Origin: Microgenomates group bacterium
GTDB taxonomy: Bacteria; Patescibacteriota; Microgenomatia; UBA1400; MFAQ01
Direction of reading: 5' to 3'
Assembly (NCBI GenBank): GCA_049303575.1
Contig: JBAQNH010000002.1
Location: 247,932 to 311,931, forward strand
DNA length: 64,000 nt
A program made the position numbers and the translations under genes. Below the pieces are notes generated by a model. That model made no database searches and was not told the DNA's origin. It saw only the letters and a program-made list of their open reading frames with translations. Shown here in pieces: positions 5,304-53,403 of the stretch (the first letter of the stretch is position 1; each line of letters opens with the position of its first letter).

Positions 5304-5304
5304 G

Positions 5305-5889
5305 CTAGTTAAACTTCCGGTCGATTGCCGAAAAAAGATCACTAAATCTATTAAAATTATCTTCGGAAATTGCAAAATCCACAGCAATTTTCGGGATAAT
5401 TGCTTGATGGTCATTAATTTGTCTATCTAAATCAGACAAATATGGGGCAGCCTCTCTTTCTGTTCTTCTTAATATATTTTTTATAATTATTTCTCTGGGT
5501 AAGTCTATCCTTATGGTGAATAACTTGAAATTATTTTTTATGGCAAAGTCTTGTACAAATTCAAATTTTCTATCAATGCTACTATCTAAAATAATAAACC
5601 CGTTACTCTTTGGAAGTTTCTCAAGAAGATATGCCAGGTAACTCAATAATATTTTTTGTTTATTATCATTATTATCAGGAGAAACAAGATTTTCGATAAT
5701 ATCGCGAATATCATCATTATTTATCCTAATTCCCTCATATTTCTCCTCTAATTTCTTGGCAATATAACTTTTTCCTGACCCTGTAATCCCGGAAAATAAC
5801 ACCAGAAACTTTTGATTTTTTTTATCTAAATTCCTTATCTGCTTAACGTGAATATTAAAAATTTGTTCGAGTATAGCTTGTGGGTCCAT
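5305..5889 (-). CDS. P-loop NTPase / predicted kinase (AAA_33 or zeta-toxin-like fold)
   Basis: Walker A GITGSGKS, hhhhD Walker B-like ILDSS; AT-rich; the only minus-strand gene in the first 50 kb. Confidence 0.5.
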   Translation of the reverse strand: MDPQAILEQIFNIHVKQIRNLDKKNQKFLVLFSGITGSGKSYIAKKLEEKYEGIRINNDDIRDIIENLVSPDNNDNKQKILLSYLAYLLEKLPKSNGFIILDSSIDRKFEFVQDFAIKNNFKLFTIRIDLPREIIIKNILRRTEREAAPYLSDLDRQINDHQAIIPKIAVDFAISEDNFNRFSDLFSAIDRKFN

Positions 5890-5929
5890 ATTTACATTAT
5901 AATGATACTCATCATAATAGAACTTATCT

Positions 5930-24330: not shown

Positions 24331-24357
24331 AAAAAAGCCTCCTCTGGGAGGTTTTTT
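24331..24357 (+). terminator. rho-independent terminator after rpsG
   Basis: A6-GCCTCC-TCT-GGAGGT-T6 hairpin. Confidence 0.6.
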
Positions 24358-24365
24358 GTTGTTTA

Positions 24366-24374
24366 TGGTAGAAT
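24366..24374 (+). promoter_or_regulatory. extended -10 promoter element (TGgTAGAAT) for the small ORF
   Basis: TGnTAGAAT followed by RBS AGGAGG at 24398-24403 and ATG at 24409. Confidence 0.4.
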
Positions 24375-24408
24375 ATTCCAAAATCTTGTACGTTAATAGG
24401 AGGAAAAC

Positions 24409-24669
24409 ATGTGGTGTCCATTTATTGCTGCTGCACTCATCAGCAACGAAGGTAAGAACTCTGTAGAAAGGATTCAAGATACTGCATTTCTCGATTGTCA
24501 GGAAACTAAGTGTCAAATGTGGAATTCACAAACCAAAGACTGTGGTTTAAAACAATCGTCCAACCGAACTCTTGTCGAGATCAAAGACCTTCTTGCTAGT
24601 ATCTCAAGCACCCTTAGTAACATCGGTGATGATGTCACTCGCCAGACAGAAGAATTAAATCATTATTAG
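24409..24669 (+). CDS. hypothetical small Cys-containing protein (86 aa) inserted in the str operon
   Basis: own promoter, RBS and terminator; 4 Cys; no recognisable domain. Confidence 0.45.
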   Translation: MWCPFIAAALISNEGKNSVERIQDTAFLDCQETKCQMWNSQTKDCGLKQSSNRTLVEIKDLLASISSTLSNIGDDVTRQTEELNHY

Positions 24670-24716
24670 AAGGGGAAGGTCCAGTCCACTTCAACCGAAG
24701 ATTGAGTAGTTACGCC

Positions 24717-24744
24717 TAGCGCCCTCACGGGCGCTATTTTATTT
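24717..24744 (+). terminator. rho-independent terminator
   Basis: perfect 8-bp stem TAGCGCCC/GGGCGCTA, loop TCAC, then T-rich tract. Confidence 0.65.
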
Positions 24745-24753
24745 CTTCCTTCT

Positions 24754-26847
24754 GTGTTAATCTACCTCAGCAAAATATTTCTTAAGATGGCCTTAAAAAC
24801 AATCGAAAATATACAATATAACCGTTCGTCTGAGTATGCTCTGGAAAATCTGGATCAACTTCCTGTGGCCAAATTAAGAGAGTACTTAAGAGAAGAAATT
24901 AGACTTCATCCCAATTTTGTTCTCATCGGTGAGACAGGTTCCGGCAAAACCACTTGTCTTCCTCCTTTATTACTCGAGTTAAGAGATGAACTCGGTCTCA
25001 AAGGCAGTATTGCCGTAACCCAGCCCAGAAGAATTGCCACCAAGAGTGTTACTGACCGTGTTGCCGAAATGATGGACTATCCGGTAGGAGACAAGGTTGG
25101 TTACCATATTCGTTTTGAAGATATTACTTCCAAAGACACCGACATCACTTTCATGACCGATGGTGTTCTTCTGCGAAAAATTCAATTTGATCCTCTTCTT
25201 TCTGAGTACTCCATTGTCATGATCGATGAAGCCCATGAGCGTAGTTTAAACATCGACCTCTGTCTTGGTCTTCTAAAAGATGTTAATCAAAGACGTTTTG
25301 AAGCCGGTTTGGACTCTGTCCGCGTTGTTGTCACTTCAGCCACTATCGAAAGAAACCGTTTTGCCGAATACATTGGTTATAAAGACAAAGATAATCTGGT
25401 CGAAATTCCCGGAAAAATGTTTCCAGTAGAGGTTTATTACGAAGATGAAATTCCTTTTAACTACGACTTTACCCAAGGTGCCGCTGAAAAAGTAAAAGCC
25501 ATTGTTGATAGCAATCTTAAAGGCGATATTCTCATTTTTATGCCCGGAAAAAGAGAAATCACCGATACTATTCAAAAAATCGAAGCCAAAATTGGTAATA
25601 ACGGGGTTGAGATTTTTCCACTTCATGCCGAAATGTCTCCCGAAGATCAAGACAAAATATTCACCCCTACCGACAAAAGAAAAATTATTGTCGCCACCAA
25701 CATTGCCGAGACCTCGGTCACAATAGATGGCATTATTCACATTATTGACTCCGGTTATATCAAACAAACCCGTTTTGACCCAAAAACCGGTATTGAACAA
25801 CTGGTTCTCACCGAACACGCCATAAGTGGTCTTGATCAACGCAAGGGTCGTGCCGGTCGCACTGCTCCGGGGTATTGTTATCGATTGTTTACCGAAAGTA
25901 GTCTCAAAAGACGACCTCTTTATCAAACTCCGGAAATTCAGCGTTCTAATTTGTCCCAGATCGTTCTTGCGATGAAGAAAGTCGGTATTGAAAGTATTGA
26001 GAACTTTGATTTTATGGATCACCCAGGTCGCGAAGCAATTACCCAGGCCCTAAACACCCTGTTTACACTAGGTGCCATAGACGGCCACGGCAATATTACC
26101 GAAATCGGTGATTGGTTGGTTGAGCTTGGACTGGAACCACGTTTGGGACGGATGCTCCTCGAGGCCATAAGGCCGGAAATCGACTGTGTCAATGAAATTA
26201 CAATCATTGCCTCTTTCCTCGACGGCAAAAATATCTTCATCAGACCACCGGAAAAAGAGCTGGAACTGGCTGCCGAAAGAGCCCATGCCCAATTTACCCA
26301 TCAAGATGACTCCGATTTCTCCGTCCTTCTTAATATCTGGAAGGCTTACGCGGCTAGTGGTTATAGCGCTGACTGGGCAAAGAAAAATTTTCTAAACGAA
26401 AAAGCTTTGGAAGAAGCCAAAAATGTTCGTTTGGATCTTATCGATGTTCTAGCAACTCATAAAATCATCATTAATCCAAATGCCTCCCCAAAAATAAATA
26501 GAACCGCCATTGGTAAAGCCGTTACCGCCGGTCTTATTGGTAATCTTTTGCAAAAAGTCGATAAATTTACTTTCAAAAAAGTCGATGGCACCAAAGGAAG
26601 TATTTTTATTCATCCCAGTTCTGTTTTGACCTACAACACTTTAAGAAAGGGCTCCTTTATTATTGCCAGTGAAATTTTTATCAACCCCCTTGGTAAAGCC
26701 TTTGCTTGCAACTGTCTGGAAGCAAGACATGAATGGCTCAAAGACTATGCTCCTGAACTTTTGCACCGTCCAGGCAGGCATCATCTAAATCACGAAAATA
26801 AAACCGGTCGATCCAAACACTACTCCCGTCATAATTCGCATCGCTAA
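24754..26847 (+). CDS. DEAH-box ATP-dependent helicase, HrpA/HrpB-like
   Basis: GETGSGKTT Walker A, DEAH box (IDEAHERS), HA2 and OB-like C-terminal region; the start may be the ATG at 24787. Confidence 0.8.
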   Translation: MLIYLSKIFLKMALKTIENIQYNRSSEYALENLDQLPVAKLREYLREEIRLHPNFVLIGETGSGKTTCLPPLLLELRDELGLKGSIAVTQPRRIATKSVTDRVAEMMDYPVGDKVGYHIRFEDITSKDTDITFMTDGVLLRKIQFDPLLSEYSIVMIDEAHERSLNIDLCLGLLKDVNQRRFEAGLDSVRVVVTSATIERNRFAEYIGYKDKDNLVEIPGKMFPVEVYYEDEIPFNYDFTQGAAEKVKAIVDSNLKGDILIFMPGKREITDTIQKIEAKIGNNGVEIFPLHAEMSPEDQDKIFTPTDKRKIIVATNIAETSVTIDGIIHIIDSGYIKQTRFDPKTGIEQLVLTEHAISGLDQRKGRAGRTAPGYCYRLFTESSLKRRPLYQTPEIQRSNLSQIVLAMKKVGIESIENFDFMDHPGREAITQALNTLFTLGAIDGHGNITEIGDWLVELGLEPRLGRMLLEAIRPEIDCVNEITIIASFLDGKNIFIRPPEKELELAAERAHAQFTHQDDSDFSVLLNIWKAYAASGYSADWAKKNFLNEKALEEAKNVRLDLIDVLATHKIIINPNASPKINRTAIGKAVTAGLIGNLLQKVDKFTFKKVDGTKGSIFIHPSSVLTYNTLRKGSFIIASEIFINPLGKAFACNCLEARHEWLKDYAPELLHRPGRHHLNHENKTGRSKHYSRHNSHR

Positions 26848-26967: not shown

Positions 26968-29091
26968 ATGGCCGCAGCCGTCTCAAAACAAGTTCCTTTA
27001 GAAAATGTTAGAAACATTGGTGTCATTGCTCACATTGACGCCGGTAAAACCACCACCACGGAGCGTATCCTTTTTTACACTGGTAAAACCTACAAGATCG
27101 GTGATATTGACGAAGGAGATACTCAAATGGACTGGATGGACCAAGAGCGCGAACGTGGTATTACCATTGTTTCCGCTGCTACTACCACTTTCTGGACTCC
27201 AGTTTTAAAAGATGCCAATATCAAAGACGACTGTCGTTTTAATATTATCGACACTCCCGGACACGTTGACTTCACCGCCGAAGTTGAGCGCTCTCTCCGC
27301 GTTCTCGATGGAGGTATTATCGTTCTTGATGCTGGTAGCGGTGTTCAATCTCAAACCGAAACCGTCTGGCGCCAAGCCGACAAATACAAAGTTCCTCGTA
27401 TTGCCCTGGTTAACAAAATGGACGTTTTGGGAGCCGATTTTATGGCTACCATTAAAGACGTTCATGAAAAACTCGGTGCCAAAACGGCCATTCTCGCTCT
27501 TCCAATAGGAGTTGAAAATACTTTCAAGGGAATTGCTATGCTTCTCGAGAAAAAAACCATTATCTGGCAGGGCGACGAAACTGGCGCCAAATATGATGTT
27601 ACCGAAGGTTTTTCCGCCGATATGGAAGCAGAATGTGAGAGTGAGAGAGCCAAACTTGTTGAGTCTATCGTTGAAACGGATGAAGCTTTAATGGAAAAAT
27701 ATTTGAATGGTGAAGAACCTTCCATGAAGGATCTTAAAACCGCTCTCCGTAGAGCTACAATTGCCAACGAAATTGTTCCTGTCTTTCCTGGATCATCTTT
27801 AAGAAATAAAGGCGTTCAGCCACTTCTTGATGCCGTTGTTGATTTTCTTCCCTCTCCTCTCGACATTACCGACACTGCCGGAACCAACCCTAAAACTGGT
27901 GAGGTAGAAACCAGAAAACCCAGTCCAGACGAAGCCTTCGTTGGTCTGGCTTTCAAAATTCAAGCCGACCCCCACGTTGGAAAAGTTACTTACGTCCGTC
28001 TCTACTCCGGAAAAATTACTGCTGGTTCCTATGTCTACAACGCCAGTAAATCCGAACGTGAACGCCTCGGTCGTTTAATGCTCATGCACGCCAACACTCG
28101 TGAGGAAATCCAAGAGGCCAGAGCTGGTGAAATTGTCGGTATTGTTGGTCTTAAGGCCACCAAAACAGGGGACACTCTCTGTGAAGAAACCCGACCCATT
28201 GTTCTCGAATCCATTGACTTCCCGGATCCTGTTATCTCACTTGCGATAGAACCAAAAACTAAAGCTGATCAAGAAAAACTCGACATTGCCCTTGGTCGTC
28301 TAGCTGAAGAAGACCCTACTTTTAAGATCAAAACTAATCATGAAACGGGTCAAACCGTCATTGCTGGTATGGGTGAACTTCACTTGGAAATTCTTGTTGA
28401 TCGTCTTCGTCGTGAATTCAAAGTCGATGCTACAACCGGCGCTCCTCAAGTGGCCTATCGAGAAACAATTACCAAAGAAGCTCGTGGTGAAGGTAAATAT
28501 ATTCGTCAGTCAGGTGGCCGTGGTCAGTATGGACACGCTATTTTAGTTGTTACTCCTAAACCTCGTGGTGAAGGATTTACTTTTACCAATAAAATTGTTG
28601 GTGGAACCATTCCTCGCGAGTTCATTAACCCTATTGAAAAAGGTGTTCGTGAAGCTTTAGACAACGGTCTTATCGCTGGTTTCCCTATGGTAGACCTTGA
28701 TGTTGCCGTCGTTGATGGAAGTTTCCACGAAGTCGACTCTTCCGAAATGTCCTTCAAAATTGCCGGAAGTATGGCTCTTCAGGACGCCGTCAAACAAGCT
28801 GGTGCCGTTATTCTCGAACCAATTATGAAAGTCGAAGTTACTACCCCGGAAGCCAACATGGGTGACATTATCGGCGATCTCTCGGCCAGACGTGCCCAAA
28901 TTGGTGGTACTGCTCAGCGTGGCAATGCTCGTGTTATTACCGCTACCGTTCCTCTTTCCGAGCTCTCTGCTTATGCTACGGCCATTCGTTCCCTTACCGC
29001 CGGACGCGCTAGCTACTACATGGAACCAAGTCATTATCAGGACCTTCCAAACAGCATTGCAGCCAAGCTGTTGAAAAATCCCGCACAATAA
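26968..29091 (+). CDS. fusA: elongation factor G
   Basis: AHIDAGKTTTTER, DTPGHVDF; 707 aa. Confidence 0.97.
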   Translation: MAAAVSKQVPLENVRNIGVIAHIDAGKTTTTERILFYTGKTYKIGDIDEGDTQMDWMDQERERGITIVSAATTTFWTPVLKDANIKDDCRFNIIDTPGHVDFTAEVERSLRVLDGGIIVLDAGSGVQSQTETVWRQADKYKVPRIALVNKMDVLGADFMATIKDVHEKLGAKTAILALPIGVENTFKGIAMLLEKKTIIWQGDETGAKYDVTEGFSADMEAECESERAKLVESIVETDEALMEKYLNGEEPSMKDLKTALRRATIANEIVPVFPGSSLRNKGVQPLLDAVVDFLPSPLDITDTAGTNPKTGEVETRKPSPDEAFVGLAFKIQADPHVGKVTYVRLYSGKITAGSYVYNASKSERERLGRLMLMHANTREEIQEARAGEIVGIVGLKATKTGDTLCEETRPIVLESIDFPDPVISLAIEPKTKADQEKLDIALGRLAEEDPTFKIKTNHETGQTVIAGMGELHLEILVDRLRREFKVDATTGAPQVAYRETITKEARGEGKYIRQSGGRGQYGHAILVVTPKPRGEGFTFTNKIVGGTIPREFINPIEKGVREALDNGLIAGFPMVDLDVAVVDGSFHEVDSSEMSFKIAGSMALQDAVKQAGAVILEPIMKVEVTTPEANMGDIIGDLSARRAQIGGTAQRGNARVITATVPLSELSAYATAIRSLTAGRASYYMEPSHYQDLPNSIAAKLLKNPAQ

Positions 29092-38601: not shown

Positions 38602-39051
38602 ATGAACTTATCTAATCTCCCTCAATCAGTCAAAACAGGAAAAAAACGCCTTGGTCGTGGATATGGTTCTGGAGTTGGCGGTCACACTGTTGGTCGTGGA
38701 CAAAAAGGTCAAAAAACTCGTGGAGTTATCCCTTTATGGTTTGAAGGTGGTCAGCTTCCAATTGTCAGACGTACCCCTTTCATTAAAGGTAAACACCGTT
38801 TCCAGGTAATTAATCTTCAACCAATCACCGTCAACTTTGACATTCTTACTAGCTACTTCGAAGACAAAGCCGTTGTTGATGCCACCTCTTTAGTCAAGAC
38901 TCTCAAAGTCAGTGACAAAGAAGCCAAGCGTGGATTCAAGATCATTGCTACGGGCAAGCTCGAAAAAGCTCTTGAGGTAAACGTTCCCGCTTCTGCCGGA
39001 GCCATCAAAGCCATCGAAAAAGCTGGTGGCAAGTATACTTTTTCTAAGTAA
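38602..39051 (+). CDS. rplO: 50S ribosomal protein L15 (follows rpsE directly; no L30 gene)
   Basis: GRGYGSGVGGHTVGRGQKG motif. Confidence 0.95.
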   Translation: MNLSNLPQSVKTGKKRLGRGYGSGVGGHTVGRGQKGQKTRGVIPLWFEGGQLPIVRRTPFIKGKHRFQVINLQPITVNFDILTSYFEDKAVVDATSLVKTLKVSDKEAKRGFKIIATGKLEKALEVNVPASAGAIKAIEKAGGKYTFSK

Positions 39052-39074
39052 CCTAAAAATTGTACCCCTATTTA

Positions 39075-39100
39075 AAAAGGCCCTTGCTTGGGGCCTTTTT
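39075..39100 (+). terminator. rho-independent terminator after rplO
   Basis: A5-GGCCC-TTGCTT-GGGCC-T5. Confidence 0.6.
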
Positions 39101-39109
39101 GATATAATA
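39101..39109 (+). promoter_or_regulatory. extended -10 promoter (TGaTATAAT) for the first island ORF
   Basis: TGnTATAAT immediately after the terminator T-tract; RBS AGGAGG at 39139-39144, ATG at 39149. Confidence 0.5.
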
Positions 39110-39148
39110 CCGTCAAGCAACTTAAAATGACCTATTCCAGGAGGAAAA

Positions 39149-39526
39149 ATGGACAGAAAATATGTGAAATGTGTCTTGGATAAGGGCTTTGCTATTGTTC
39201 GGGAAAAGGAAAACATTGCCGATGGATGGTTCCCCAATATCACTTTTTTTGGGACCGACGGCAACTTTCTCTTTACTCTTCTCGGTGACTCCAAAAAAAA
39301 ATTCTACGATGCACTTACAAAGCTGGGCGACCCAGAGGCAAATCAAGAAGATCGTCAAGAATTTGACTACTCCACACTTTCCAAAAGTTATACCTTTGAG
39401 TGGAAGTTAGGCTGGCTTTGTGTCTTCGAAACAAATGTCGTAAAAGACAAGACTAAAGACAGTTTGGTTATCATCGACAAAACTTCTGCCAAGAAAATCC
39501 TTGAGGGAATTAAAAATCTAGTCTAG
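39149..39526 (+). CDS. hypothetical protein (125 aa), island ORF 1
   Basis: own promoter, RBS and terminator; no recognisable domain. Confidence 0.5.
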   Translation: MDRKYVKCVLDKGFAIVREKENIADGWFPNITFFGTDGNFLFTLLGDSKKKFYDALTKLGDPEANQEDRQEFDYSTLSKSYTFEWKLGWLCVFETNVVKDKTKDSLVIIDKTSAKKILEGIKNLV

Positions 39527-39532
39527 TCTCTC

Positions 39533-39558
39533 TCCACCCCACCCGGGGTGGTTTTTTG
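39533..39558 (+). terminator. repeated terminator hairpin, copy 1 (CCACCCCACCCGGGGTGG + T6)
   Basis: CCACCCC/GGGGTGG stem; near-identical copies at 40132 and 41321. Confidence 0.65.
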
Positions 39559-39615
39559 TAATATAATATCCCCCAAGCAACTTAAAATTCGATAATTCAA
39601 GAGAAGGAGCCTTAC

Positions 39616-40125
39616 ATGCAGAAAAAACTTGAACTAAGAAGCCAATTTGTTCGCCCGCACTTAATTCAAAGACTGAATAAACCAATCGGTCATGTAAACC
39701 CCTGGTCCTTCGGAGGGGGATTAGAAGACGGTGGTATTAGTCAAGAAGGTATGGATATCTTGAAAGACATCTTTTCTTTTGACTATATGGGATCATCGGA
39801 GTTCGAATGGGGAGCCGTTCCCGCGGCTTTAAACTTTATTGCCCAGCAATCAAGTCTCAAAACGGTCACATCCGGGGAGATTATGGGAGTTTATTACATC
39901 TGTCCGGTTAGTTATGAAGAGGGTGTGAAAGACACAATCAAGGTATTGCTTGAAGATGAACACACCCTTCGATTGAAAGAAGGCTGCGGCCTCAAGGACA
40001 GAGTCAAAAATCTGAATGAGTGGGACGAACGCAACGTTGGTTGGCTCGAACTGGACAACGGTTTCTTCTTCTTCACCGATAAAGAAATGTTTGAGAAAAC
40101 CAAACTTCTTTTTGAAGTTCCCTAA
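39616..40125 (+). CDS. hypothetical protein (169 aa), island ORF 2
   Basis: preceded by a TATAAT box, the shared 5'-UTR motif CAAGCAACTTAAAAT and RBS AAGGAG; no recognisable domain. Confidence 0.5.
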   Translation: MQKKLELRSQFVRPHLIQRLNKPIGHVNPWSFGGGLEDGGISQEGMDILKDIFSFDYMGSSEFEWGAVPAALNFIAQQSSLKTVTSGEIMGVYYICPVSYEEGVKDTIKVLLEDEHTLRLKEGCGLKDRVKNLNEWDERNVGWLELDNGFFFFTDKEMFEKTKLLFEVP

Positions 40126-40131
40126 ATACAT

Positions 40132-40157
40132 CACCACCCCCTACGGGGTGGTTTTTA
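40132..40157 (+). terminator. repeated terminator hairpin, copy 2 (loop variant CCCTACGGGG)
   Basis: CCACCCC-CTAC-GGGGTGG + T5. Confidence 0.6.
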
Positions 40158-40740
40158 GTGCCAAGGAAACCCCGCACAAGCGAGGTCTGTGCGGGGATGA
40201 ATTGGAAAAACAGGTTACCATCGTAAGATGGTATCCTGTTGGTAGTGTGAGAAGACTGAAACTAAACCATGTTACATATCAACAGGAGTTCCATATTGTT
40301 TGGGGTACTCGATACAGAAGAAAGTTTCTTAAAAAGTACGTTAAGCCCGAGTTTGTGAGATTGTTACAGCAAGTCGAGAAGAAGTATCCTACACTCCATG
40401 TGGTTGAGGTAAATACTAATGAAGATCATGTTCACCTACAGATTGAGATACCACCGAACCTTTCTTCTGCCGTCGTGGTAAAAAGGGTGAAGTGGTATCT
40501 GAGTAAGGGGTTAAAGAAGAAATTCAAGTTCATCCGTGAGATGTATCTCGACGGCAGTATATGGAGTGTGGGTTACTTCTCTTCAACCATTGGGCTTAAC
40601 GAAGAAACCATACGAGAGTACATTGTTAAACAAGGTCAAGAAGACCTGCCGAGGGAAGAGTAGTCTTCGAACAGAATACCACCAGGAAACCCCGGACCAA
40701 TGCGAGGCAAATGCCGAGTCTGTCCGGGGAGGACGTCATT
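40150..40740 (+). mobile_element. IS200/IS605-family insertion sequence (TnpA only), bounded by subterminal hairpins
   Basis: left-end hairpin CCCCGCACA...TGTGCGGGG (40170-40196) and right-end hairpin CCCCGGAC...GTCCGGGG (40690-40729), both preceded by GGAAACC; single HUH-Y1 transposase gene between them. Confidence 0.7.
40202..40663 (+). CDS. tnpA: IS200/IS605 family transposase TnpA (HUH Y1); start uncertain
   Basis: FHIVWGTRYRRKFL motif, HVHLQIEIPP (HxH), catalytic Tyr in SVGYFSSTIG; the track start at 40016 overlaps the upstream ORF and is an artefact; candidate starts are TTG 40202 or GTG 40247. Confidence 0.75.
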   Translation: MEKQVTIVRWYPVGSVRRLKLNHVTYQQEFHIVWGTRYRRKFLKKYVKPEFVRLLQQVEKKYPTLHVVEVNTNEDHVHLQIEIPPNLSSAVVVKRVKWYLSKGLKKKFKFIREMYLDGSIWSVGYFSSTIGLNEETIREYIVKQGQEDLPREE

Positions 40741-40820
40741 TTCATGCTATTAGCTTGACAAATATACAATTATAGGATAGTGTATAGATACTTTAAAATT
40801 CTATATTCCTGGAGGTTAAT

Positions 40821-41312
40821 ATGCCCTACGTTTTTCTTAGAAACTTACCTGAACACTTTATGGGTCTAGTCAATACTCCGCGTGAAATTTTCAGTCCAGC
40901 AACATCTACCGCCGATATGTATGCGAAAATCGCGGAAGCTGCCAGTTGTGAAGTCGATGGGGTAGAAATTCACTTATCAAGTGAAACTTACACCCTTCTT
41001 AATCTGGATGGTTCAGCGCGTAAGTGTCCGAATGTTCATGGTGAAGTAGAGTGGCACGGAAGTGAAAACCGAGATCTTAAGGTAAAACAAACAATCGCCG
41101 ATGCGATTCAGCAGTTTCTGAATTTGCATCTGGCCGGTGAAGGGTTTGATCTTACTTTCCACGACTCACCTGCTGGCACGTTCTTTGTTGAAAAGGGCGG
41201 CAAATCAGTTTTGATCCAAGGAGGGGAAGCCATTCCTCCAAACAAGGTTCTCGCTCAAGTTGCCTACGAAGTCCTGGGGCACGAAACCCCAGGTGTAATA
41301 ACCAACGACTAA
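40821..41312 (+). CDS. hypothetical protein (163 aa), island ORF 3
   Basis: TTGACA-like and TATAAT-like promoter elements upstream, RBS GGAGG, followed by terminator repeat copy 3. Confidence 0.5.
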   Translation: MPYVFLRNLPEHFMGLVNTPREIFSPATSTADMYAKIAEAASCEVDGVEIHLSSETYTLLNLDGSARKCPNVHGEVEWHGSENRDLKVKQTIADAIQQFLNLHLAGEGFDLTFHDSPAGTFFVEKGGKSVLIQGGEAIPPNKVLAQVAYEVLGHETPGVITND

Positions 41313-41320
41313 CCAAGATG

Positions 41321-41346
41321 TTCTAACTAACCACCCCACCCGGGGT
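41321..41346 (+). terminator. repeated terminator hairpin, copy 3
   Basis: ACCACCCCACCCGGGGTGG + T5, then TGTAAAAT -10-like box ahead of secY. Confidence 0.65.
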
Positions 41347-41414
41347 GGTTTTTCTTTGGTGTAAAATACCTTCTGACTCACCCAAGTTTCAAGCCAACTG
41401 TTAAAATAAAAACA

Positions 41415-42701
41415 ATGAATAATTTATTAGCCCCCCTGCGTGCCTTACTGAAGATTCCCGAACTTCGTCGTCGTTTAGTCTTCACCGCCATCGTTATTGC
41501 CATTTTCCGACTCGTTGCTCATGTCCCCGCCCCGGGCATTAATCTGGCTGCTCTTAAAGAAATGTTCAACTCGTCTGCCTTTTTATCTCTTCTCGACGTC
41601 TTTTCTGGCGGTACTCTCGGGAACTTCTCTATTATGGCTCTTGGTCTTAACCCTTACATCAACGCCTCTATTATTTTCCAAATGCTCGGCATGGTCATTC
41701 CCAAGCTTGAAGCACTTCAAAAGGAAGGGGACTACGGTCGTCAAAAAATTAATCAATACACTCGTCTCCTCACCATTCCTCTCTGTTTTCTTCAAGGCAT
41801 CGCTCTAATTTTTCTTCTCCAAAAACAAGGTCTTACTACTACGGCCGATCCACTTCAGCTTGCTTCTGTTGTCTTTACTCTCGCCGCCGGCACCTCTCTT
41901 CTCATCTGGCTTGGAGAGCAACTAAACGACTACGGCCTGGGAAATGGTATCAGTCTTATCATTTTTGTTGGCATCGTTACTCGTATTCCCATAAGTCTGA
42001 TGCAGACTATCTCCACTATTGACCAAACAAGGATATTTACCTACCTTATCTTTCTTATCTTCGTCATCGCCGCCATCTATGCCATCGTGCGGACAGGTGA
42101 AGCTGTTCGTGAAATTCCCATTCAGTCTGCTCGTCGTGGCGGGGGGGCCTCTTACGGCGCCGTCGCCAGTAGCCATCTTCCCCTCCGTTTAAACCAGGCT
42201 GGTGTTATCCCAATTATCTTTGCCGTGTCCTTTATGCTCATTCCTGGGATGCTCAGTCAAATTTTGGGTCGCGTTAATCAACCGGCACTTGCTAGCTTTG
42301 CTACTACCTTGAGTATTTTGTTATCTCCGAGCTCTGTTCTTTATAATGTCCTCTACTTTGTTTTGGTGGTCGCTTTTACCTACTTTTATACCGCCGTTGT
42401 TTTCAATCCCGAAAAAATTGCCAAAGATCTTCGCTCCTCTGGATCATTCATTCCTGGTATAAGACCCGGTCCTGACACCGTTAATTATCTAAATTTTATC
42501 CTCGGTCGTATCACTCTGGTCGGAGCCAGTTTCCTTGGTCTTGTCGCCGTTCTTCCTTCAATTATGTCCGGTTTTACCGGTATTTCCTCACTAGCTATTG
42601 GTGGTACCAGTGTTCTTATCGTCGTCTCGGTTGTTCTCGAGATCTTGAAGACCATCAACTCCCAGCTCTATATGCACAGTTACGACAAATTCCTGGATTA
42701 G
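41415..42701 (+). CDS. secY: preprotein translocase subunit SecY
   Basis: 428 aa, 10 TM helices, SecY signature regions. Confidence 0.95.
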   Translation: MNNLLAPLRALLKIPELRRRLVFTAIVIAIFRLVAHVPAPGINLAALKEMFNSSAFLSLLDVFSGGTLGNFSIMALGLNPYINASIIFQMLGMVIPKLEALQKEGDYGRQKINQYTRLLTIPLCFLQGIALIFLLQKQGLTTTADPLQLASVVFTLAAGTSLLIWLGEQLNDYGLGNGISLIIFVGIVTRIPISLMQTISTIDQTRIFTYLIFLIFVIAAIYAIVRTGEAVREIPIQSARRGGGASYGAVASSHLPLRLNQAGVIPIIFAVSFMLIPGMLSQILGRVNQPALASFATTLSILLSPSSVLYNVLYFVLVVAFTYFYTAVVFNPEKIAKDLRSSGSFIPGIRPGPDTVNYLNFILGRITLVGASFLGLVAVLPSIMSGFTGISSLAIGGTSVLIVVSVVLEILKTINSQLYMHSYDKFLD

Positions 42702-49229: not shown

Positions 49230-50159
49230 ATGGGCACTCCATTCAAATGGATCGCACTCTTTGCCATCGGGCTATTTCTCGGCATATTTTTATTTACTTC
49301 CAAGCCACTACCGATAACTGGTCGACTTCCGGAATTAATTTTTCCCAAAGACTCATCTCCTCTTACCCTTATTTTCACCGGTGATGTTATGCTTGGTCGT
49401 TCCGTCAATACTCGAATTCAAAAATATACCGACCCCACCTGGCCATTCAAAAATATTTCCTCCTTTTTATCTGCTGGAGACTTAACTATCATTAATCTGG
49501 AATCTCCCTTTATCACCGGTTGTCGTCCAACAGATACAGGAATGATTTTTTGTGCCGACCCTAAAAATGTTTTTGGACTCGTCTCTGCCGGTGTGGATAT
49601 TGCCACACTTGTCAACAATCACATCAACAATCAGGGGCGAGAGGGGAAAGATGAAACGGTTTCAATTTTAAAAACAAATGGCATTCTTCCTGTGGTTTCC
49701 GAAAAGACGGAGTTTAATACGGTAAAGAACACCAAACTAGCAATACTATCCTTTTCCGATTTTCCCCAAGTAGATGAAAAAGAGGTCGAGAAACAAATAT
49801 CCACCGCTTCTAAGTCTGCCGACCTCGTCATAACTACTTTTCACTGGGGGGCAGAGTATCAAAGATATCCAACCTCAAGACAGGTATTTCTTGCTCATCT
49901 CGCCATCGATTCCGGTGCTGATATCGTCGTTGGACATCATCCTCACTGGGTTCAAACCGAAGAAATTTATCTTGGCAAACCAATTTACTACTCCCTTGGT
50001 AATCTTATTTTTGATCAAATGTGGTCGGAGGAAACACGTCTCGGTGAAATCTTAAGAGTTACTTACCAAGACGGCAAACTGGTAAAAAAAGAAGTTTTCC
50101 CGATAAAAATTTTTGACTACGGCCAACCCAATTTTTATCCTACTTCGGATCTGAAATAA
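49230..50159 (+). CDS. CapA/PgsA-family (poly-gamma-glutamate synthesis-like) metallophosphatase
   Basis: N-terminal TM helix; TFHWGAEY and GHHPHW motifs. Confidence 0.65.
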
Positions 50160-51076
50160 GCAATCGTCTGAACGAGTCCTTTTTCCAAAGGAATCAAAGG
50201 TTCCCAGGATAGTTTTTCTTTTGCCAAAGTAATATCCGGTTTTCGGATCTTTGGGTCATCTTTAGGAATATCTTCAAAAACAATCTTGCTTTTTGACTCG
50301 GGAATCATTTTAAGGACAATCTCAGCCAACTCTTTAATCGTAAATTCCCCGGGATTTCCGATATTTACCGGCCCGATAAATCCAAGATTATTTTCCATCA
50401 TTTTCAACATGCCGCTAATTAGATCATCTACATACTGGAAGCTTCTTGTTTGTGAACCATCGCCATAGATCGTGATGTCCTGATTGGAAAGTGCTTGCAC
50501 AATAAAGTTTGAAACCACCCTTCCATCATTTGGATCCATGTTTGGACCATAGGTGTTAAAAATTCTGATTATTCTTACGGGAAGTTCAAATTTTCGAAAA
50601 TAATCGACAATCAATGTCTCTGCCGCTCTTTTCCCTTCGTCATAGCAAGATCGAATTCCAACCGGGTTTACATTACCCCAGTAACTCTCTTTTTGAGGGT
50701 GTTCTAGTGGGTCTCCGTAGACTTCTGACGTCGATGTTTGCAGTAGTCGGCAATTGTTATTTTTTCTAGCCAAATCCAGCATATTCATCACCCCGATCAC
50801 AGAAGTTTTCCAGGTAAAGATAGGGTCTTTTTGATATGCGGGAGGGGAAGCTGGACAAGCTAAGTTATAAATTCTATCTAATCCGGTAATTTCCAAGGGA
50901 TTTACGATATCATGTTCAATTACTGAAAACTTCTCCGACTCCAAGAGTTTCTCAATATTCTTTTTTCTTCCGGTATAAAAATTATCTACACAGATAACCT
51001 CATTACCTTCATCAATAAGCCTTTTACAAAGGTGTGAACCAATAAATCCCGCCCCTCCTGTTACTAGTATTTTCAT
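50135..51076 (-). CDS. UDP-glucuronate decarboxylase (UDP-xylose synthase), NAD-dependent SDR
   Basis: [14 protein letters not shown] Rossmann motif; strong UXS-like similarity throughout. Confidence 0.8.
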
Positions 51077-51133
51077 TATGTAATTCTACCCCAGCTTGAC
51101 AACCTTTCTCTTCCGCCTTATAGATTAATCAGT

Positions 51134-52303
51134 ATGAAAAAAATTATTCAACTCTTTTCCTCGTTGGTTCCCGCCTTTTTATTCATTTCTATTTTTGCTT
51201 CCTCCGCCGGAGCAGTTTTTTTTCAAACCGGTGACAGTCTTGTAATACCCAAAGAAAAAATAATCAATGAAACAGCCGTCATTTCCGGTTCTTCGCTTAC
51301 CATTAATTCAAATATCAACGGAGACCTTTTGTGTGCTGGTCAAAATGTTGTAATTAATGGGAACATCAAAGGTGATGTTATTTGTTTTGGTCAAAATATT
51401 AAAATAAACGGCACTGTTGATGGCAATGTTCGTGCTGCAGGCCAGACAATCGAGATCTTTGGCCAAGTTACCAGGAATCTTTCAATTGCCTCACAACAAC
51501 TGGTTCTTGATTCAAAGTCGCAAATAAAAGGTGATGTTTTTTTTGGAGTTCAGAATGTCGAACTGGGTGGTGTCATGGGACGTGACCTAGCCGGAGCCGG
51601 TGACTCAATCACTATTACAGGGTCTCTTTTAAGAAACGCCGTCGTTACGGGAACAAAGCTGTCCATAATTGAAACTGGAAAAATTGGCGGCAACCTTGAC
51701 TACTATATGGAAAAAACAGCCACGGCTTCAATTGGTGAAAAAACTGTCAAAGGAAATATACTAAGACACGATATTGTTACTCCCTCAAAACCTGCATTAG
51801 ACAAAAAAATGGCCGGCATTGCCAACACAGCCATTATCCTCAAAACCATATTTGGAATCCTCTCCTTTGGTCTTCTTGGTTTGGCTATTGTTTTCTTCGA
51901 CAAAAAAGACACCAAAAAGAAAATTTCCGCAATCATCAATAAACCCCTGGTCAGCGGACTTATTGGTTTAGCGATCTTAATCACTGCCCCCTTAGTCTTC
52001 ATTATTATTCTGGCTACGGTTATTGGTATGCCTTTGGCCTTTGTTGTTATGTTTGTTTATATCATTGCTCTAATTACCGCCTCACTCTATCCTTCAGCCA
52101 TATACGGAAAACTCTTTTTTGAAAAAGTGCTTCAAAAAACAAACACCTCTCTTTATTCTCAAATGTTTATGGGAGTAATCCTACTCGGGCTTGTTTCAAT
52201 TATTCCGGTTATTGGTTGGATAATTGCTTTTGTATCATTCTGCATGGGACTTGGAGCCTCTCTCGTTTCAATGTTCCCCGAAAAAGCCGAAACTAAAAAT
52301 TAA
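51134..52303 (+). CDS. membrane-anchored beta-helix repeat protein (bactofilin / polymer-forming-like repeats) with C-terminal multi-TM domain
   Basis: signal/TM N-terminus, repeated INGxIKGDV / GQNVxINGxV units, 4 predicted C-terminal TM helices. Confidence 0.4.
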   Translation: MKKIIQLFSSLVPAFLFISIFASSAGAVFFQTGDSLVIPKEKIINETAVISGSSLTINSNINGDLLCAGQNVVINGNIKGDVICFGQNIKINGTVDGNVRAAGQTIEIFGQVTRNLSIASQQLVLDSKSQIKGDVFFGVQNVELGGVMGRDLAGAGDSITITGSLLRNAVVTGTKLSIIETGKIGGNLDYYMEKTATASIGEKTVKGNILRHDIVTPSKPALDKKMAGIANTAIILKTIFGILSFGLLGLAIVFFDKKDTKKKISAIINKPLVSGLIGLAILITAPLVFIIILATVIGMPLAFVVMFVYIIALITASLYPSAIYGKLFFEKVLQKTNTSLYSQMFMGVILLGLVSIIPVIGWIIAFVSFCMGLGASLVSMFPEKAETKN

Positions 52304-52309
52304 TATCGC

Positions 52310-52690
52310 TCAATAACCCCTTTTTCCTCTGGGTCTTAACATGTTCCTACGTTGCTTTCGACGTTTTTCCTTCTTTCTCTTCGGAAGTTTTTCGTTATGA
52401 ATGAAATTTGGATCTTCCACTGTCAGATAATACTCAAGGCTAACATAAGCACCCTTTAGCTGCTTTCTTACTAAAAGAAGTCTCGCCTCTGTCGTCCGAT
52501 CTTTATCTTTGTGACATGGCTCGGAAAGATGTTGAATATTTTCCTTCGCATTTATTTGCTCATAACTCCACCCCCAGAGCTTCCCAATACATTGGGGAGT
52601 AAAGTGATCTACCGTGTTTCCAACACCGTCACATGACTCGTTATGAACAGGAGCTTCACACGGAGGGTAACAATTAACCTCTTTATTCAT
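52310..52690 (-). CDS. HNH endonuclease with basic C-terminal tail
   Basis: CxxxC ... DHFTPQC ... N ... EPCHKDKD arrangement; KRKKEKRRKQRR tail. Confidence 0.55.
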   Translation of the reverse strand: MNKEVNCYPPCEAPVHNESCDGVGNTVDHFTPQCIGKLWGWSYEQINAKENIQHLSEPCHKDKDRTTEARLLLVRKQLKGAYVSLEYYLTVEDPNFIHNEKLPKRKKEKRRKQRRNMLRPRGKRGY

Positions 52691-52763
52691 TTAGAGAAAA
52701 TATATCACCACAAACTCAAATTACTAGAGGCAAAATATGATACCGGAAGTACAGATCCTTTGT

Positions 52764-53375
52764 TTACATTGACACGCTGTCGGCAAAAACCACCAGACGT
52801 TTGCTATAACTTTTTTTGTTCAAATCCCAAACCCCATCACAAGTAACCAGATTTAAATGAACACCGTCATTCAGATCAAATACTTCTTTTGCATAATCAG
52901 GATTTAAAATACGTTTTTCTCGAACAATAAAAACAAACGACTCTCCCTTATCATCCTCAACATATATCAAACTATTTTCTTTTAATTTATACAAATCGAC
53001 AAACACCCCTGCTTCATCATTCTTTCCATCTAAATGTCCGGCAATAACGGCACTTCCGATCTCCCCGGGGATTGGTCCAATTTTAAACCATCCGGCTTCA
53101 AGAATACTGTTCGGAACCTCCATTTCCCCTTCTGAATTAACGCCAACTTGCTGAATAGCGGTATCGACGTTGATTGCTGGTATTATTAGGCGTACCGGAA
53201 TTCCCGGTCTCTTACTCTGTTCTTCGACCCCCAAAACTTTGATTTTCTCGTTTGGTAAAGTTTGTCGATCATGAACCTGAATTTTGTATAGTCCAATCGA
53301 AGATATTAAAAACAACACAAAAGAAAATGTCATTAACACAACACGTTCTCTTAGTCTTGTCCAGTGAATAAACAT
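52764..53375 (-). CDS. sortase family transpeptidase (second copy)
   Basis: N-terminal TM helix, IAGH, LNLVTC (TLxTC), RLVV motifs. Confidence 0.7.
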   Translation of the reverse strand: MFIHWTRLRERVVLMTFSFVLFLISSIGLYKIQVHDRQTLPNEKIKVLGVEEQSKRPGIPVRLIIPAINVDTAIQQVGVNSEGEMEVPNSILEAGWFKIGPIPGEIGSAVIAGHLDGKNDEAGVFVDLYKLKENSLIYVEDDKGESFVFIVREKRILNPDYAKEVFDLNDGVHLNLVTCDGVWDLNKKSYSKRLVVFADSVSM

Positions 53376-53403
53376 ACTATTACTTTCAACAATCTCATTT
53401 CTA

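What the first reader, a model, noticed from the sequence alone, without database searches (positions are those of the whole stretch)
39533..41346. Near-identical terminator hairpin in three copies, plus a conserved 15-nt 5'-UTR block, framing each island gene
CCACCCCACCCGGGGTGG plus a T-run occurs at 39533, 40132 (loop variant CTAC) and 41321, each immediately after an island ORF. The 5'-UTRs of ORF1 and ORF2 share TATAAT...CAAGCAACTTAAAAT at 39114-39128 and 39574-39588. Repeated promoter-UTR-terminator modules suggest cassette-like duplication or recombination, or a REP/MITE-like repeat family used as portable expression units. IS200/IS605 elements and their RAYT relatives are known to associate with REP hairpins, and the IS here sits directly against copy 2.
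Basis: seen in the sequence. Interest (0 to 1): 0.6.

Follow-up and report, generated by a model that had tools for sequence, protein, structure and literature searches.

The report
Shuffled gene cassettes between rplO and secY
The three look-alike hairpins are transcription terminators ending small self-contained accessory genes lodged between two essential genes (rplO and secY) of an ultra-small Microgenomates bacterium, and in related genomes the same terminator-plus-promoter junctions mark where such genes are gained, lost and re-ordered.

Summary
The hairpin CCACCCC-N4-GGGGTGG plus a T-run occurs three times (39534, 40134, 41331) and nowhere else in the 64 kb. The block CAAGCAACTTAAAAT occurs twice. 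The host is a Microgenomates (CPR) MAG.

In about 25 related genomes the rplO-secY gap measures 0.6-4.6 kb, against 60-312 bp in two outgroups. It holds a different mix and order of about 12 recurring small gene families in each genome. Most cassettes there end in a hairpin of this family: 33 of 63 terminator-like sites inside islands, 0 of 27 outside.

Three independent genome pairs differ by whole cassettes whose end-points fall inside the repeated hairpin/promoter module. One is a 97.8% identical sister strain that lacks ORF2, the IS and ORF3.

The "UTR block" is a paralogous copy of the extended -10 element (CTGTTAAAAT) that lies 7 nt before the secY start codon.

Best reading: these are moron-like, insulated transcription units in a recombination hotspot, and the homologous terminator-promoter junctions serve as crossover points. 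The IS200-like element is a strain-specific passenger, and no REP/RAYT or integron features were found. This is a new variant of known kinds and moderately interesting.

The parts
38602..39051 (+). rplO (ribosomal protein L15), the conserved left flank of the island; no L30 gene lies between rpsE and rplO
   Evidence: Pfam Ribosomal_L27A on the identical product
39074..39100 (+). rplO terminator hairpin AAAAAGGCCC-ttgcttg-GGGCCTTTTT, conserved in position across the clade; it marks an operon boundary
   Evidence: -18.9 kcal/mol, z -4.3
39100..39108 (+). Extended -10 promoter TGATATAAT for ORF1 (type A module)
   Evidence: TGRTATAATA-like sites enriched in the window: 13 found, 5.3 expected
39114..39128 (+). 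Block copy 1, CAAGCAACTTAAAAT, containing the -10-like hexamer TAAAAT
39149..39526 (+). ORF1 (125 aa), family F1; the commonest island family, fast-evolving
39534..39557 (+). Hairpin copy 1, CCACCCC-accc-GGGGTGG plus T6; intrinsic terminator of ORF1
39559..39567 (+). -10 region TAATATAAT for ORF2 (type A module)
39574..39588 (+). Block copy 2, CAAGCAACTTAAAAT
39616..40125 (+). ORF2 (169 aa), family F4; a phage-pool family of unknown function and unmatched fold
40133..40157 (+). Hairpin copy 2, ACCACCCC-ctac-GGGGTGGT plus T5; terminator of ORF2. It belongs to the cassette, not to the IS
   Evidence: ORF2 homologues in L128 and L145 have the hairpin without any IS
40161..40746 (+). IS200-like insertion sequence (boundaries approximate): left-end hairpin 40161-40205, tnpA about 40247-40663 (GTG start), right-end hairpin 40684-40735. 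An inverted repeat 40234-40244/40277-40287 brackets the start codon
   Evidence: Y1_Tnp 1.7e-26; contigs L005/L007 break inside the right end
40755..40799 (+). Type B promoter for ORF3: TTGACA (40755-40760), 17 nt, TAGTGT (40778-40783), then degenerate block ACTTTAAAAT (40790-40799)
   Evidence: homologous promoter upstream of the ORF3 homologue in L193
40821..41312 (+). ORF3 (163 aa), family F6; invariant Pro2, and 2 of 5 homologues hit Pfam DUF1904
41329..41355 (+). Hairpin copy 3, AACCACCCC-accc-GGGGTGGTT plus T-run; terminator of ORF3 and right edge of the variable region
   Evidence: 39/39 nt identical to L145
41358..41407 (+). secY restart region: GGTGTAAAAT (41358-41367) followed by CAAGCCAACTGTTAAAAT (41390-41407). 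The latter's TGTTAAAAT is an extended -10 that ends 7 nt before the secY ATG, so the secY mRNA is probably leaderless
41415..42701 (+). secY, the conserved right flank

Best explanation
The region 39.05-41.41 kb is one instance of a lineage-wide hypervariable cassette island at the rplO|secY operon boundary of a Microgenomates (CPR) clade.

Anatomy. Each island gene is an autonomous, insulated transcription unit with five parts:
- a sigma-70-type promoter, either an extended -10 (TGnTATAAT) placed a few nt after the preceding T-run, or TTGACA-17-TATAnT;
- a conserved G(C/T)AACTTAAAAT element 5-10 nt downstream of the -10;
- a short unstructured leader with AGGAGG;
- the ORF;
- a 7-9 bp CCACCC(C)/(G)GGGTGG hairpin plus U-run that terminates transcription 7-16 nt after the stop codon.
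The last hairpin is followed by promoters that restart transcription of secY-adk-map. Insertions therefore have no polar effect on essential genes.

Origin and turnover. The hairpin and promoter/block junctions are homologous repeats. The block is a paralogous copy of the secY core-promoter region. These repeats act as crossover points for homologous recombination, or slippage, within genomes and between related genomes. Whole cassettes are gained, lost, duplicated and re-ordered in this way, and the junctions are partly homogenised within each genome. The cargo genes are drawn from a shared accessory and phage gene pool.

Shown versus inferred. Shown: the anatomy, island specificity, hotspot conservation, and indels bounded by the repeats. 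Inferred: actual termination and promoter use, the recombination mechanism (RecA-type rather than site-specific), and the direction of each event.

The IS. The IS200-like element is an unrelated passenger that landed 9 nt after hairpin 2.
For: Anatomy. Hairpins fold at -14 to -16.5 kcal/mol and the leaders are unstructured (z about 0).

Island specificity: 3 copies, all in the island; 3 of 9 strong window terminators; 33/63 inside islands against 0/27 outside, over 173 kb of related loci; AACTTAAAAT is not enriched elsewhere in the window.

Hotspot. The rplO-secY gap is 593-4595 bp in the roughly 25 clade loci that reach secY, and 60-312 bp in two outgroups. Twelve recurring gene families appear in a different order and content in nearly every distinct genome. 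In one search, 16 of 18 truncated contigs end inside the island.

Indels bounded by repeats: WIN/L001, L128/L135 and L131/L193. The crossover positions differ: inside the hairpin in two pairs, and 15-30 nt downstream of it in L131/L193. That pattern argues for homology-driven rather than site-specific exchange.

Module conservation and homogenisation: 39/39 nt are identical between WIN and L145, next to secY DNA that is only 79.6% identical. L142 has 4 identical hairpins and 3 near-identical modules of about 55 nt. Within-genome similarity exceeds between-genome similarity (permutation 3/300 and 0/300). Compensatory stem changes are present.

Block is a copy of the secY promoter. CTGNTANAAT lies 7-14 nt before the secY ATG in most clade members and in outgroup L181, and even inside the 3' end of the F3 gene.

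Generic promoter grammar.

Cargo from the phage pool. In viral contexts the gene is not followed by the hairpin (0/29).

Patescibacteria commonly carry competence and pilus genes (PMC12455944).
Against: No transcript data: termination, promoter choice (TATAAT or TAAAAT) and the leaderless secY mRNA are all predictions.

Only 64 kb of the 704 kb source contig, and 12 kb pieces of the relatives, could be read. The 'outside' sequence is mostly ribosomal operons with few terminators, so genome-wide island specificity is not proven.

The same stem, and even the same 18-mer with loop CTCACC, turns up in unrelated taxa and in high-GC viral contigs. Convergence on this terminator design is therefore possible and weakens the homology argument for the hairpin alone.

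The excess of within-genome over between-genome similarity is modest (0.875 against 0.829).

A site-specific or single-strand recombinase encoded elsewhere in the genome cannot be excluded. Insertion cannot be told from deletion for any single event.
Confidence: 0.7

Rival explanations
1. The hairpin, or the hairpin plus block, is the recombination site of a dedicated site-specific or single-strand DNA recombinase encoded elsewhere in the genome. This would be an integron/attC-like or Xer/pdif-like cassette system. Cassettes would excise as circles and re-insert at the rplO|secY landing site, and terminator activity would be secondary.
For: Cassette arrays sit at one fixed locus in about 25 genomes, and unrelated gene families share the same short structured junction. 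The outer CCA...TGG pairs are invariant in 27 distinct hairpins, and loop sequences are conserved across genomes whose L15 proteins differ by up to 24%. The hairpin-promoter junction is far more conserved than the adjoining secY DNA.
Against: No recombinase lies in or next to any island. The hairpin is an 18-22 nt perfect stem with a U-run, not a 57-141 bp attC with R/L boxes or a 28-bp dif-like site. The sequence after the stem (GTTTTTN) does not fit the integron core GTTRRRY. The cassettes carry their own promoters. Crossover points in three strain pairs fall at different places along the module.
Confidence: 0.12
2. There is no homology and no special role. These are ordinary intrinsic terminators that converged on an optimal G-free 5' arm design, and ordinary promoters. 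The island is just a set of independently acquired genes, and the repeats play no part in its dynamics.
For: The exact 18-mer with loop CTCACC occurs in unrelated high-GC viral contigs. The grammar 'terminator then extended -10 within about 10 nt' is generic in this genome.
Against: The family is absent from all 27 terminator-like sites outside the islands and from the 6 other strong terminators in the window. Similarity extends beyond the stem into the T-run, promoter and block: about 55 nt near-identical three times in L142, and 39/39 nt between WIN and L145. Three independent indels have their end-points in the repeats.
Confidence: 0.1
3. The hairpins are REP- or MITE-like elements spread or acted on by the adjacent IS200/IS605-type Y1 transposase or a RAYT relative.
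For: An IS200-like tnpA (Y1_Tnp, 1.7e-26) sits 9 nt from hairpin 2. Y1 transposases act on DNA hairpins (established knowledge).
Against: The IS ends carry different hairpins (GGAAACCCCGCACA...TGTGCGGGGA). tblastn finds no Y1 transposase in any of the roughly 45 related loci, although 21 islands carry 38 family hairpins. The IS is absent from the corresponding positions in L128, L145 and L193. Only 3 copies occur in 64 kb, all directly after stop codons and each with a U-run. There are no terminal inverted repeats or target duplications.
Confidence: 0.03

Closest known systems
Phage 'morons' (autonomous promoter-gene-terminator units inserted between adjacent genes of a conserved operon; own knowledge: Juhala et al. 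2000, Hendrix et al.)
   Same: Each island gene has its own sigma-70 promoter and factor-independent terminator. The genes sit between two genes that are adjacent in outgroups (a 60-bp gap in L180). Strand composition is atypical: GC skew flips positive at 39-41 kb. At least one cargo family is common in phage contigs.
   Different: The host replicon is a bacterial chromosome at a ribosomal/secY operon boundary, not a prophage. Several units are stacked in an array. Their terminators and promoter junctions are homologous to each other and mark the recombination break-points.
Neisseria minimal mobile elements (MMEs; Saunders & Snyder 2002, cited in PMC1797815)
   Same: Alternative small gene cassettes occupy a syntenic site between conserved flanking genes in different strains, with no mobility genes of their own (for the definition). 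The organisms are probably naturally competent (PMC12455944).
   Different: MMEs are exchanged through homology in the flanking genes. Here, internal repeated terminator-promoter modules also provide crossover points, which allows single cassettes to be added, removed or re-ordered within the array.
Integron cassette arrays / CALINs (attC-bounded cassettes)
   Same: An ordered array of single-gene cassettes sits at one locus, each ending in a short structured element. Content and order vary between relatives.
   Different: There is no integrase and no attI. The hairpins are 18-22 nt perfect terminators with U-runs rather than 57-141 bp attC sites. The cassettes have their own promoters. The crossover position is not fixed.
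Uptake-sequence inverted repeats that double as terminators (Neisseria DUS, Haemophilus USS; own knowledge)
   Same: Near-identical terminator hairpins recur after many genes in competent bacteria.
   Different: DUS/USS are spread genome-wide at about one per kb. Here there are 3 copies in 64 kb, all in the island, and none in 173 kb of flanking DNA from relatives.
IS200/IS605 family, IS200 group (applies only to the inserted element at 40161-40746)
   Same: It has a single Y1 HUH transposase gene of about 138 aa, subterminal hairpins at both ends sharing AGGAAACCCCG, no terminal inverted repeats, and an inverted repeat that sequesters the start region, as in Salmonella IS200 (own knowledge).
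   Different: It is shorter (about 590 bp) than classical IS200 (about 700 bp). The exact ends and the target site could not be determined because no second copy was available.

Membership tests
Intrinsic (Rho-independent) terminator | G+C-rich stem of 5-12 bp, a loop of 3-8 nt, followed immediately by a U-run | tested here: met
   7-9 bp stems with 6 G-C pairs, 4-nt loops and T5-T6 tails; folding energies -14.1 to -16.5 kcal/mol
Intrinsic (Rho-independent) terminator | Lies shortly downstream of a stop codon on the coding strand | tested here: met
   7, 7 and 16 nt after the stop codons of ORF1-3; the same holds in related islands
Intrinsic (Rho-independent) terminator | Stem pairing is maintained by compensatory change | tested here: met
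   3 of 7 pairs show double changes (C-G to U-A) among 27 distinct family members; the outer 3 pairs are invariant
Intrinsic (Rho-independent) terminator | Transcripts actually end at the U-run | not testable with these tools
   Needs Term-seq or in vitro transcription
Integron / attC cassette array | IntI tyrosine recombinase and an attI site adjacent to the array | tested here: not met
   Island ORFs have no recombinase domains. The flanks are rplO and secY in every genome. The rest of the genome was not available
Integron / attC cassette array | attC of 57-141 bp with R''-L''/L'-R' boxes, extrahelical bases, and core GTTRRRY | tested here: not met
   The hairpin is an 18-22 nt perfect stem, and the 3' foot reads GTTTTTN
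Integron / attC cassette array | Cassettes are mostly promoterless and expressed from Pc | tested here: not met
   Every cassette has its own -10 or -35/-10 promoter
REP / RAYT system | Hundreds of extragenic palindromic copies spread genome-wide | tested here: inconclusive
   3 copies in 64 kb, all in the island, and none in 173 kb of related flanks. The full genome could not be scanned
REP / RAYT system | A Y1 transposase (RAYT) flanked by, and specific for, the repeated hairpin | tested here: not met
   The tnpA here is flanked by different hairpins. No Y1 gene occurs in the other islands that carry the hairpin
MITE | Terminal inverted repeats and a target-site duplication around a short non-coding element | tested here: not met
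   No repeats exist beyond the hairpin itself, and the flanks differ between copies
Phage moron | An autonomous promoter + ORF + terminator unit lying between genes that are adjacent in relatives | tested here: met
   (outgroup gaps of 60-312 bp)
Phage moron | Resides in a phage or prophage genome | tested here: not met
   The flanks are ribosomal-protein genes, secY, adk and map, and no phage structural genes are present
Minimal mobile element (Neisseria type) | Alternative gene cassettes at a syntenic site between conserved genes in different strains, without their own mobility genes | tested here: met
   definition from PMC1797815
Minimal mobile element (Neisseria type) | Exchange by transformation and homologous recombination in the flanking genes | not testable with these tools
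   Only inferred. The break-points seen here lie in internal repeats
IS200/IS605 (inserted element only) | Y1 HUH transposase plus subterminal hairpins, without terminal inverted repeats | tested here: met
   Pfam Y1_Tnp 1.7e-26 and PHROG transposase 2.1e-27. Left-end and right-end hairpins at 40161-40205 and 40684-40735 share AGGAAACCCCG

The most novel reading that the evidence does not exclude
The roughly 60-nt 'terminator hairpin + restart promoter + TAAAAT block' is a selected gene-capture module. On this reading it is a natural landing pad at the rplO|secY boundary of a CPR clade that does two jobs. It insulates and expresses any inserted gene without polar effects on secY. It also serves as the recombination site through which single-gene cassettes, partly of phage origin, are captured, excised and shuffled. 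That would make it a recombinase-free, or unknown-recombinase, analogue of an integron in ultra-small bacteria.
Probability: 0.18. Interest if true: 0.75.

Novelty: new variant of a known kind. Interest (0 to 1): 0.5.

Why it matters
CPR/Patescibacteria have tiny genomes, and how they acquire and try out new genes is poorly understood. This study found a fixed, lineage-wide hotspot inside the most conserved gene cluster of the genome. Small genes there are stacked as insulated transcription units, and whole units are swapped at repeated terminator-promoter junctions.

The finding has three uses. It offers a concrete, testable model for gene flux in these organisms. It explains why metagenome assemblies of this clade break right after rplO, which matters for binning and for ribosomal-protein phylogenies. 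It also supplies natural terminator and promoter parts, and a probable leaderless secY promoter, for a group that has no genetic tools.

Tried and rejected
1. Degenerate hairpin scan of genome contigs. A genome-wide census of the source MAG was therefore impossible.
2. Exact-protein look-ups for ORF2 and for a 138-aa TnpA found nothing on record. IS copy number and target site could not be determined.
3. Rfam scan of the island at E up to 1: no family matched.
4. Pfam, PHROGs, NCBIfam and PADLOC on ORF1-3: no hits. Pfam on ten other island proteins gave only weak M28 peptidase, methyltransferase and DUF2284 hints. No defence or toxin-antitoxin assignment was possible.
6. ORF3 structure. pLDDT was 58.8 from 5 sequences, too poor for a fold search. 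The tautomerase-like idea (Pro2, DUF1904) remains a lead only.
7. TTGATA-N18-TAAAAT as the promoter, with the block as its -10. Rejected as the general rule because the spacing ranges from 17 to 30 nt between modules. Not excluded for module 1.
8. DNA-uptake-sequence idea. Rejected because the copies are confined to the island.
9. Hairpin travelling with the ORF2 family. Rejected: 0 of 29 viral homologues carry it, and neither does the CPR locus L276. Only L132 has a related hairpin.
10. Exact hairpins in IMG/VR: 0 and 3 hits, all in unrelated high-GC contexts.
Full report
OBSERVATION. The 18-mer CCACCCCACCCGGGGTGG is exact at 39534-39551 and 41331-41348. A loop variant, CCACCCCCTACGGGGTGG, lies at 40134-40151. 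At up to 3 mismatches these are the only matches on either strand of the 64-kb window, where 0.01 are expected. Each is followed by 5-6 T and starts 7, 7 and 16 nt after the stop codons of ORF1 (39149-39526), ORF2 (39616-40125) and ORF3 (40821-41312). As RNA they fold into 7-9 bp hairpins of -14.1 to -16.5 kcal/mol. CAAGCAACTTAAAAT is exact at 39114-39128 and 39574-39588, each time 5-6 nt after a TATAAT. Degenerate further copies of the block lie upstream of ORF3 (ACTTTAAAAT, 40790-40799) and of secY (CAAGCCAACTGTTAAAAT, 41390-41407).

CONTEXT. The island sits between rplO (38602-39051) and secY (41415-42701), inside the S10-spc-alpha ribosomal gene cluster. No L30 gene lies between rpsE and rplO, which is a CPR trait (own knowledge). 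The source is an NCBI MAG labelled 'Microgenomates group bacterium', locus tags WA052_01915-01930, on a 704-kb contig. rplO has its own strong terminator at 39074-39100 (-18.9 kcal/mol). GC skew flips positive at 39-41 kb. Between hairpin 2 and the ORF3 promoter lies an IS200-like element of about 590 bp. Its tnpA hits Y1_Tnp at 1.7e-26, and it has left- and right-end hairpins at 40161-40205 and 40684-40735 that share AGGAAACCCCG. An inverted repeat brackets the probable GTG start at 40247.

NOT A GENERIC TERMINATOR. A strict scan of the window finds 9 strong terminators on the + strand. Three are this hairpin, all in the island, and the other six have unrelated stems. In 21 related loci (below) there are 63 terminator-like sites in 43.5 kb of island, and 33 belong to the CCAYYC...GRRTGG family. 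There are 27 such sites in 173 kb outside the islands, and none belongs to the family. The 10-nt core AACTTAAAAT is not enriched elsewhere in the window (12 found, 13.9 expected). The extended -10 TGRTATAATA is enriched (13 found, 5.3 expected). The layout 'terminator, then extended -10 within about 10 nt, then a leader of about 35 nt with AGGAGG' also occurs at 24333-24410 with unrelated sequences. The island therefore uses the genome's normal regulatory grammar but with its own repeated sequences. One caveat applies: only 64 kb of the source genome could be read, and the 'outside' DNA is mostly ribosomal operons.

A LINEAGE-WIDE HOTSPOT. Exact-protein look-ups and a JGI metagenome scan with L15 returned about 45 loci of the same clade, with L15 70-98% identical. 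Among the loci that reach secY, the rplO-secY gap is 593-4595 bp. It is 60 and 312 bp in two outgroups whose L15 is 56-58% identical. Sixteen of 18 contigs that do not reach secY end 41-1700 nt after rplO, as expected if strain heterogeneity breaks assemblies there. The islands contain about 12 recurring families. F1 corresponds to ORF1 and often has 2-3 paralogues per island. F4 corresponds to ORF2 and F6 to ORF3. F3 is a Cys/His-rich 170-aa protein that abuts secY. The others are F2, F5 and F7-F12. Content and order differ in nearly every distinct genome. For example, the window has F1-F4-IS-F6, L128 has F4-F1, L131 has F1-s-F2-F4-F3, L193 has F6-F1-F4-F4'-F3, and L142 has F1-F7-F1-F1. Most cassettes end in a hairpin of the family. 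Many are preceded by one of two junction types. Type A is T-run + GGTATATAATACCGC + CAAGCAACTTAAAAT. Type B is TTGACA-17-TATA(C/A)T + about 8 nt + GTAACTTAAAAT.

REPEATS ARE THE BREAK-POINTS. L001 is a sister strain 97.8% identical over 7 kb. It has rplO-terminator-ORF1-hairpin-secY leader, and ORF2, the IS and ORF3 are absent. Its single hairpin matches window copy 1 on the left and copy 3 on the right. L128 and L135 differ by the F1 cassette, and a 25-nt hairpin in L135 aligns to both L128 hairpins. L131 and L193 differ by four cassettes, each bounded by hairpin/promoter repeats. For the 106-aa cassette the switch lies 15-30 nt downstream of the hairpin, between the T-run and the -10. The ORF1 homologue keeps its own leader (GACCTATTCC(G)AGGAGG) in the window and in L128, but upstream of AACTTAAAAT it carries a type A promoter in one and a type B promoter in the other. 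Crossovers thus fall at several places along a module of about 60 nt. That pattern fits homology-driven exchange or slippage better than a site-specific recombinase.

CONSERVATION AND HOMOGENISATION. Hairpin 3 plus the following promoter (41329-41367) is 39/39 nt identical to L145, while the adjoining secY DNA is 79.6% identical and ORF2 is 72%. L142 carries four identical hairpins and three near-identical modules of about 55 nt. Hairpins are more alike within a genome than between genomes: 0.875 against 0.829, with 3 of 300 permutations reaching the observed value, and 0 of 300 when flanks are included. Among 27 distinct family members the outer CCA/TGG pairs never vary, and three inner pairs show compensatory changes. 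The cargo, by contrast, evolves fast. ORF1 is 74% identical between the window and L001 (32 nonsynonymous and 11 synonymous codon changes). The four ribosomal genes upstream show 19 synonymous changes and no nonsynonymous ones.

WHAT THE BLOCK IS. In most clade members and in outgroup L181, a CTGNTANAAT lies 7-14 nt before the secY ATG, and no Shine-Dalgarno sequence is present. It persists even where it forms the last codons of the F3 gene. This is an extended -10 (TGnTAAAAT) at the distance expected for a leaderless or near-leaderless secY mRNA. That conclusion is an inference. The cassette block CAAGC-AACT-TAAAAT aligns to this secY element, CAAGCCAACTGTTAAAAT. The type A junction as a whole is a shortened copy of the secY restart region, GGTGTAAAATACC...CAAGCCAACTGTTAAAAT. 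The 'UTR block' is therefore a paralogous copy of the secY core-promoter region, and it sits 5-10 nt after another -10. Three roles are possible: a second -10, the first transcribed bases, or a homology scar. Sequence alone cannot decide between them. The leaders themselves are unstructured (z about 0), and no Rfam family matches.

THE IS AND THE REP/RAYT IDEA. Hairpin 2 belongs to the ORF2 cassette, because ORF2 homologues in L128 and L145 have the hairpin without any IS. The IS ends carry different hairpins. No Y1 transposase is found in any other related locus, although 21 islands hold 38 family hairpins. Contigs L005 and L007 start inside the IS right end, which suggests the IS is multi-copy in the genome. 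The IS is a strain-specific passenger.

CONVERGENCE CAVEAT. The 18-mer with loop CTCACC occurs in three unrelated viral contigs, at least two of them clearly G+C-rich. A G-free 5' arm and loop is evidently a favoured terminator design, so the stem alone is weak evidence of homology. The case for homology rests on three things: island specificity, similarity that extends through the T-run, promoter and block, and the repeat-bounded indels.

VERDICT. This is a moron-like, MME-like cassette hotspot at an operon boundary of a CPR clade, and its homologous terminator-promoter junctions are the crossover points. Confidence is about 0.7. The main rival is a dedicated recombination site (about 0.12). 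Pure convergence (about 0.1) and REP/RAYT (about 0.03) are less likely. It is a new variant of known kinds, with interest 0.5.

Noticed in passing
window 41399-41417; also L128, L135, L154, L166, L176, L177, L181 just upstream of secY: secY has no Shine-Dalgarno sequence. An extended -10 (CTGTTAAAAT, generalised as CTGNTANAAT) ends 7-14 nt before its ATG in most clade members and in outgroup L181. This suggests a leaderless or near-leaderless secY mRNA.
   Followed up: partly
window 24333-24736: A second moron-like single-gene unit lies between rpsG and the EF-G genes. It consists of a terminator (24333-24356), TGGTAGAATA, AGGAGG, an 86-aa ORF (24409-24669) and a terminator (24717-24736). Its hairpins are unrelated to the island family.
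   Followed up: partly
window 24754-26847 and 26968-29091: Two long ORFs (697 and 707 aa) lie in tandem where fusA is expected, upstream of tuf. The second begins like EF-G. The first was not examined and may be an EF-G paralogue.
   Followed up: no
L024 3221-4108 and L027 4061-5853 (contigs labelled Candidatus Peribacteria): The identical hairpin AACCACCCCACCCGGGGTGGTTTTTT occurs in the rpoC-rpsL gap of two other CPR genomes. That gap is also variable: one holds a small membrane protein plus a 129-aa ORF, the other a 385-aa ORF plus a 135-aa ORF. Cassette insertion at conserved operon junctions may therefore be more widespread in CPR.
   Followed up: partly
window 39149-39526 compared with L001 6546-6923: ORF1 is only 74% identical between strains whose flanking ribosomal genes show synonymous changes only. 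It has 32 nonsynonymous and 11 synonymous codon differences, arranged as a mosaic of identical and very divergent stretches. This points to diversifying selection or allele replacement.
   Followed up: partly
L131 5563-6086, L137, L145, L193 2388-2900: Family F3 (about 170 aa, Cys/His-rich, faint DUF2284 hit) always sits directly before secY. Its last codons contain the secY -10 element. In genomes without F3, including the window, the block at 41390-41407 looks like the retained 3' end of a deleted F3 gene.
   Followed up: partly
window 40234-40244 / 40277-40287: An 11-nt inverted repeat brackets the probable GTG start of the IS200-like tnpA. It resembles the translation-sequestering stem-loop described for Salmonella IS200 (own knowledge).
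   Followed up: no
Genome-contig loci L008-L127: 39 of the 120 returned hits for CCACCCC-N4-GGGGTGG-T5 are CPR/Patescibacteria, mostly Saccharibacteria. Many are bidirectional (A5...T5).
   Followed up: no
P0129, P0133, P0140, P0145: A short stretch of ORF1 (about residues 19-60 or 45-95) recurs 4-8 times in giant proteins of 391-1428 aa. ORF1 may therefore be a single unit of a repeat domain.
   Followed up: no
window 5001-6000 and 50000-53400: These are low-GC stretches (0.345 and 0.37-0.40) that coincide with the few minus-strand genes of the window. They may be further acquired regions.
   Followed up: no
L131 3386-3500: In L131 an extra promoter (TTGACA...TATAAT) and a terminator of about 110 nt lie between rplO and the usual rplO-type terminator. 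This may be a small RNA or a micro-ORF cassette.
   Followed up: no
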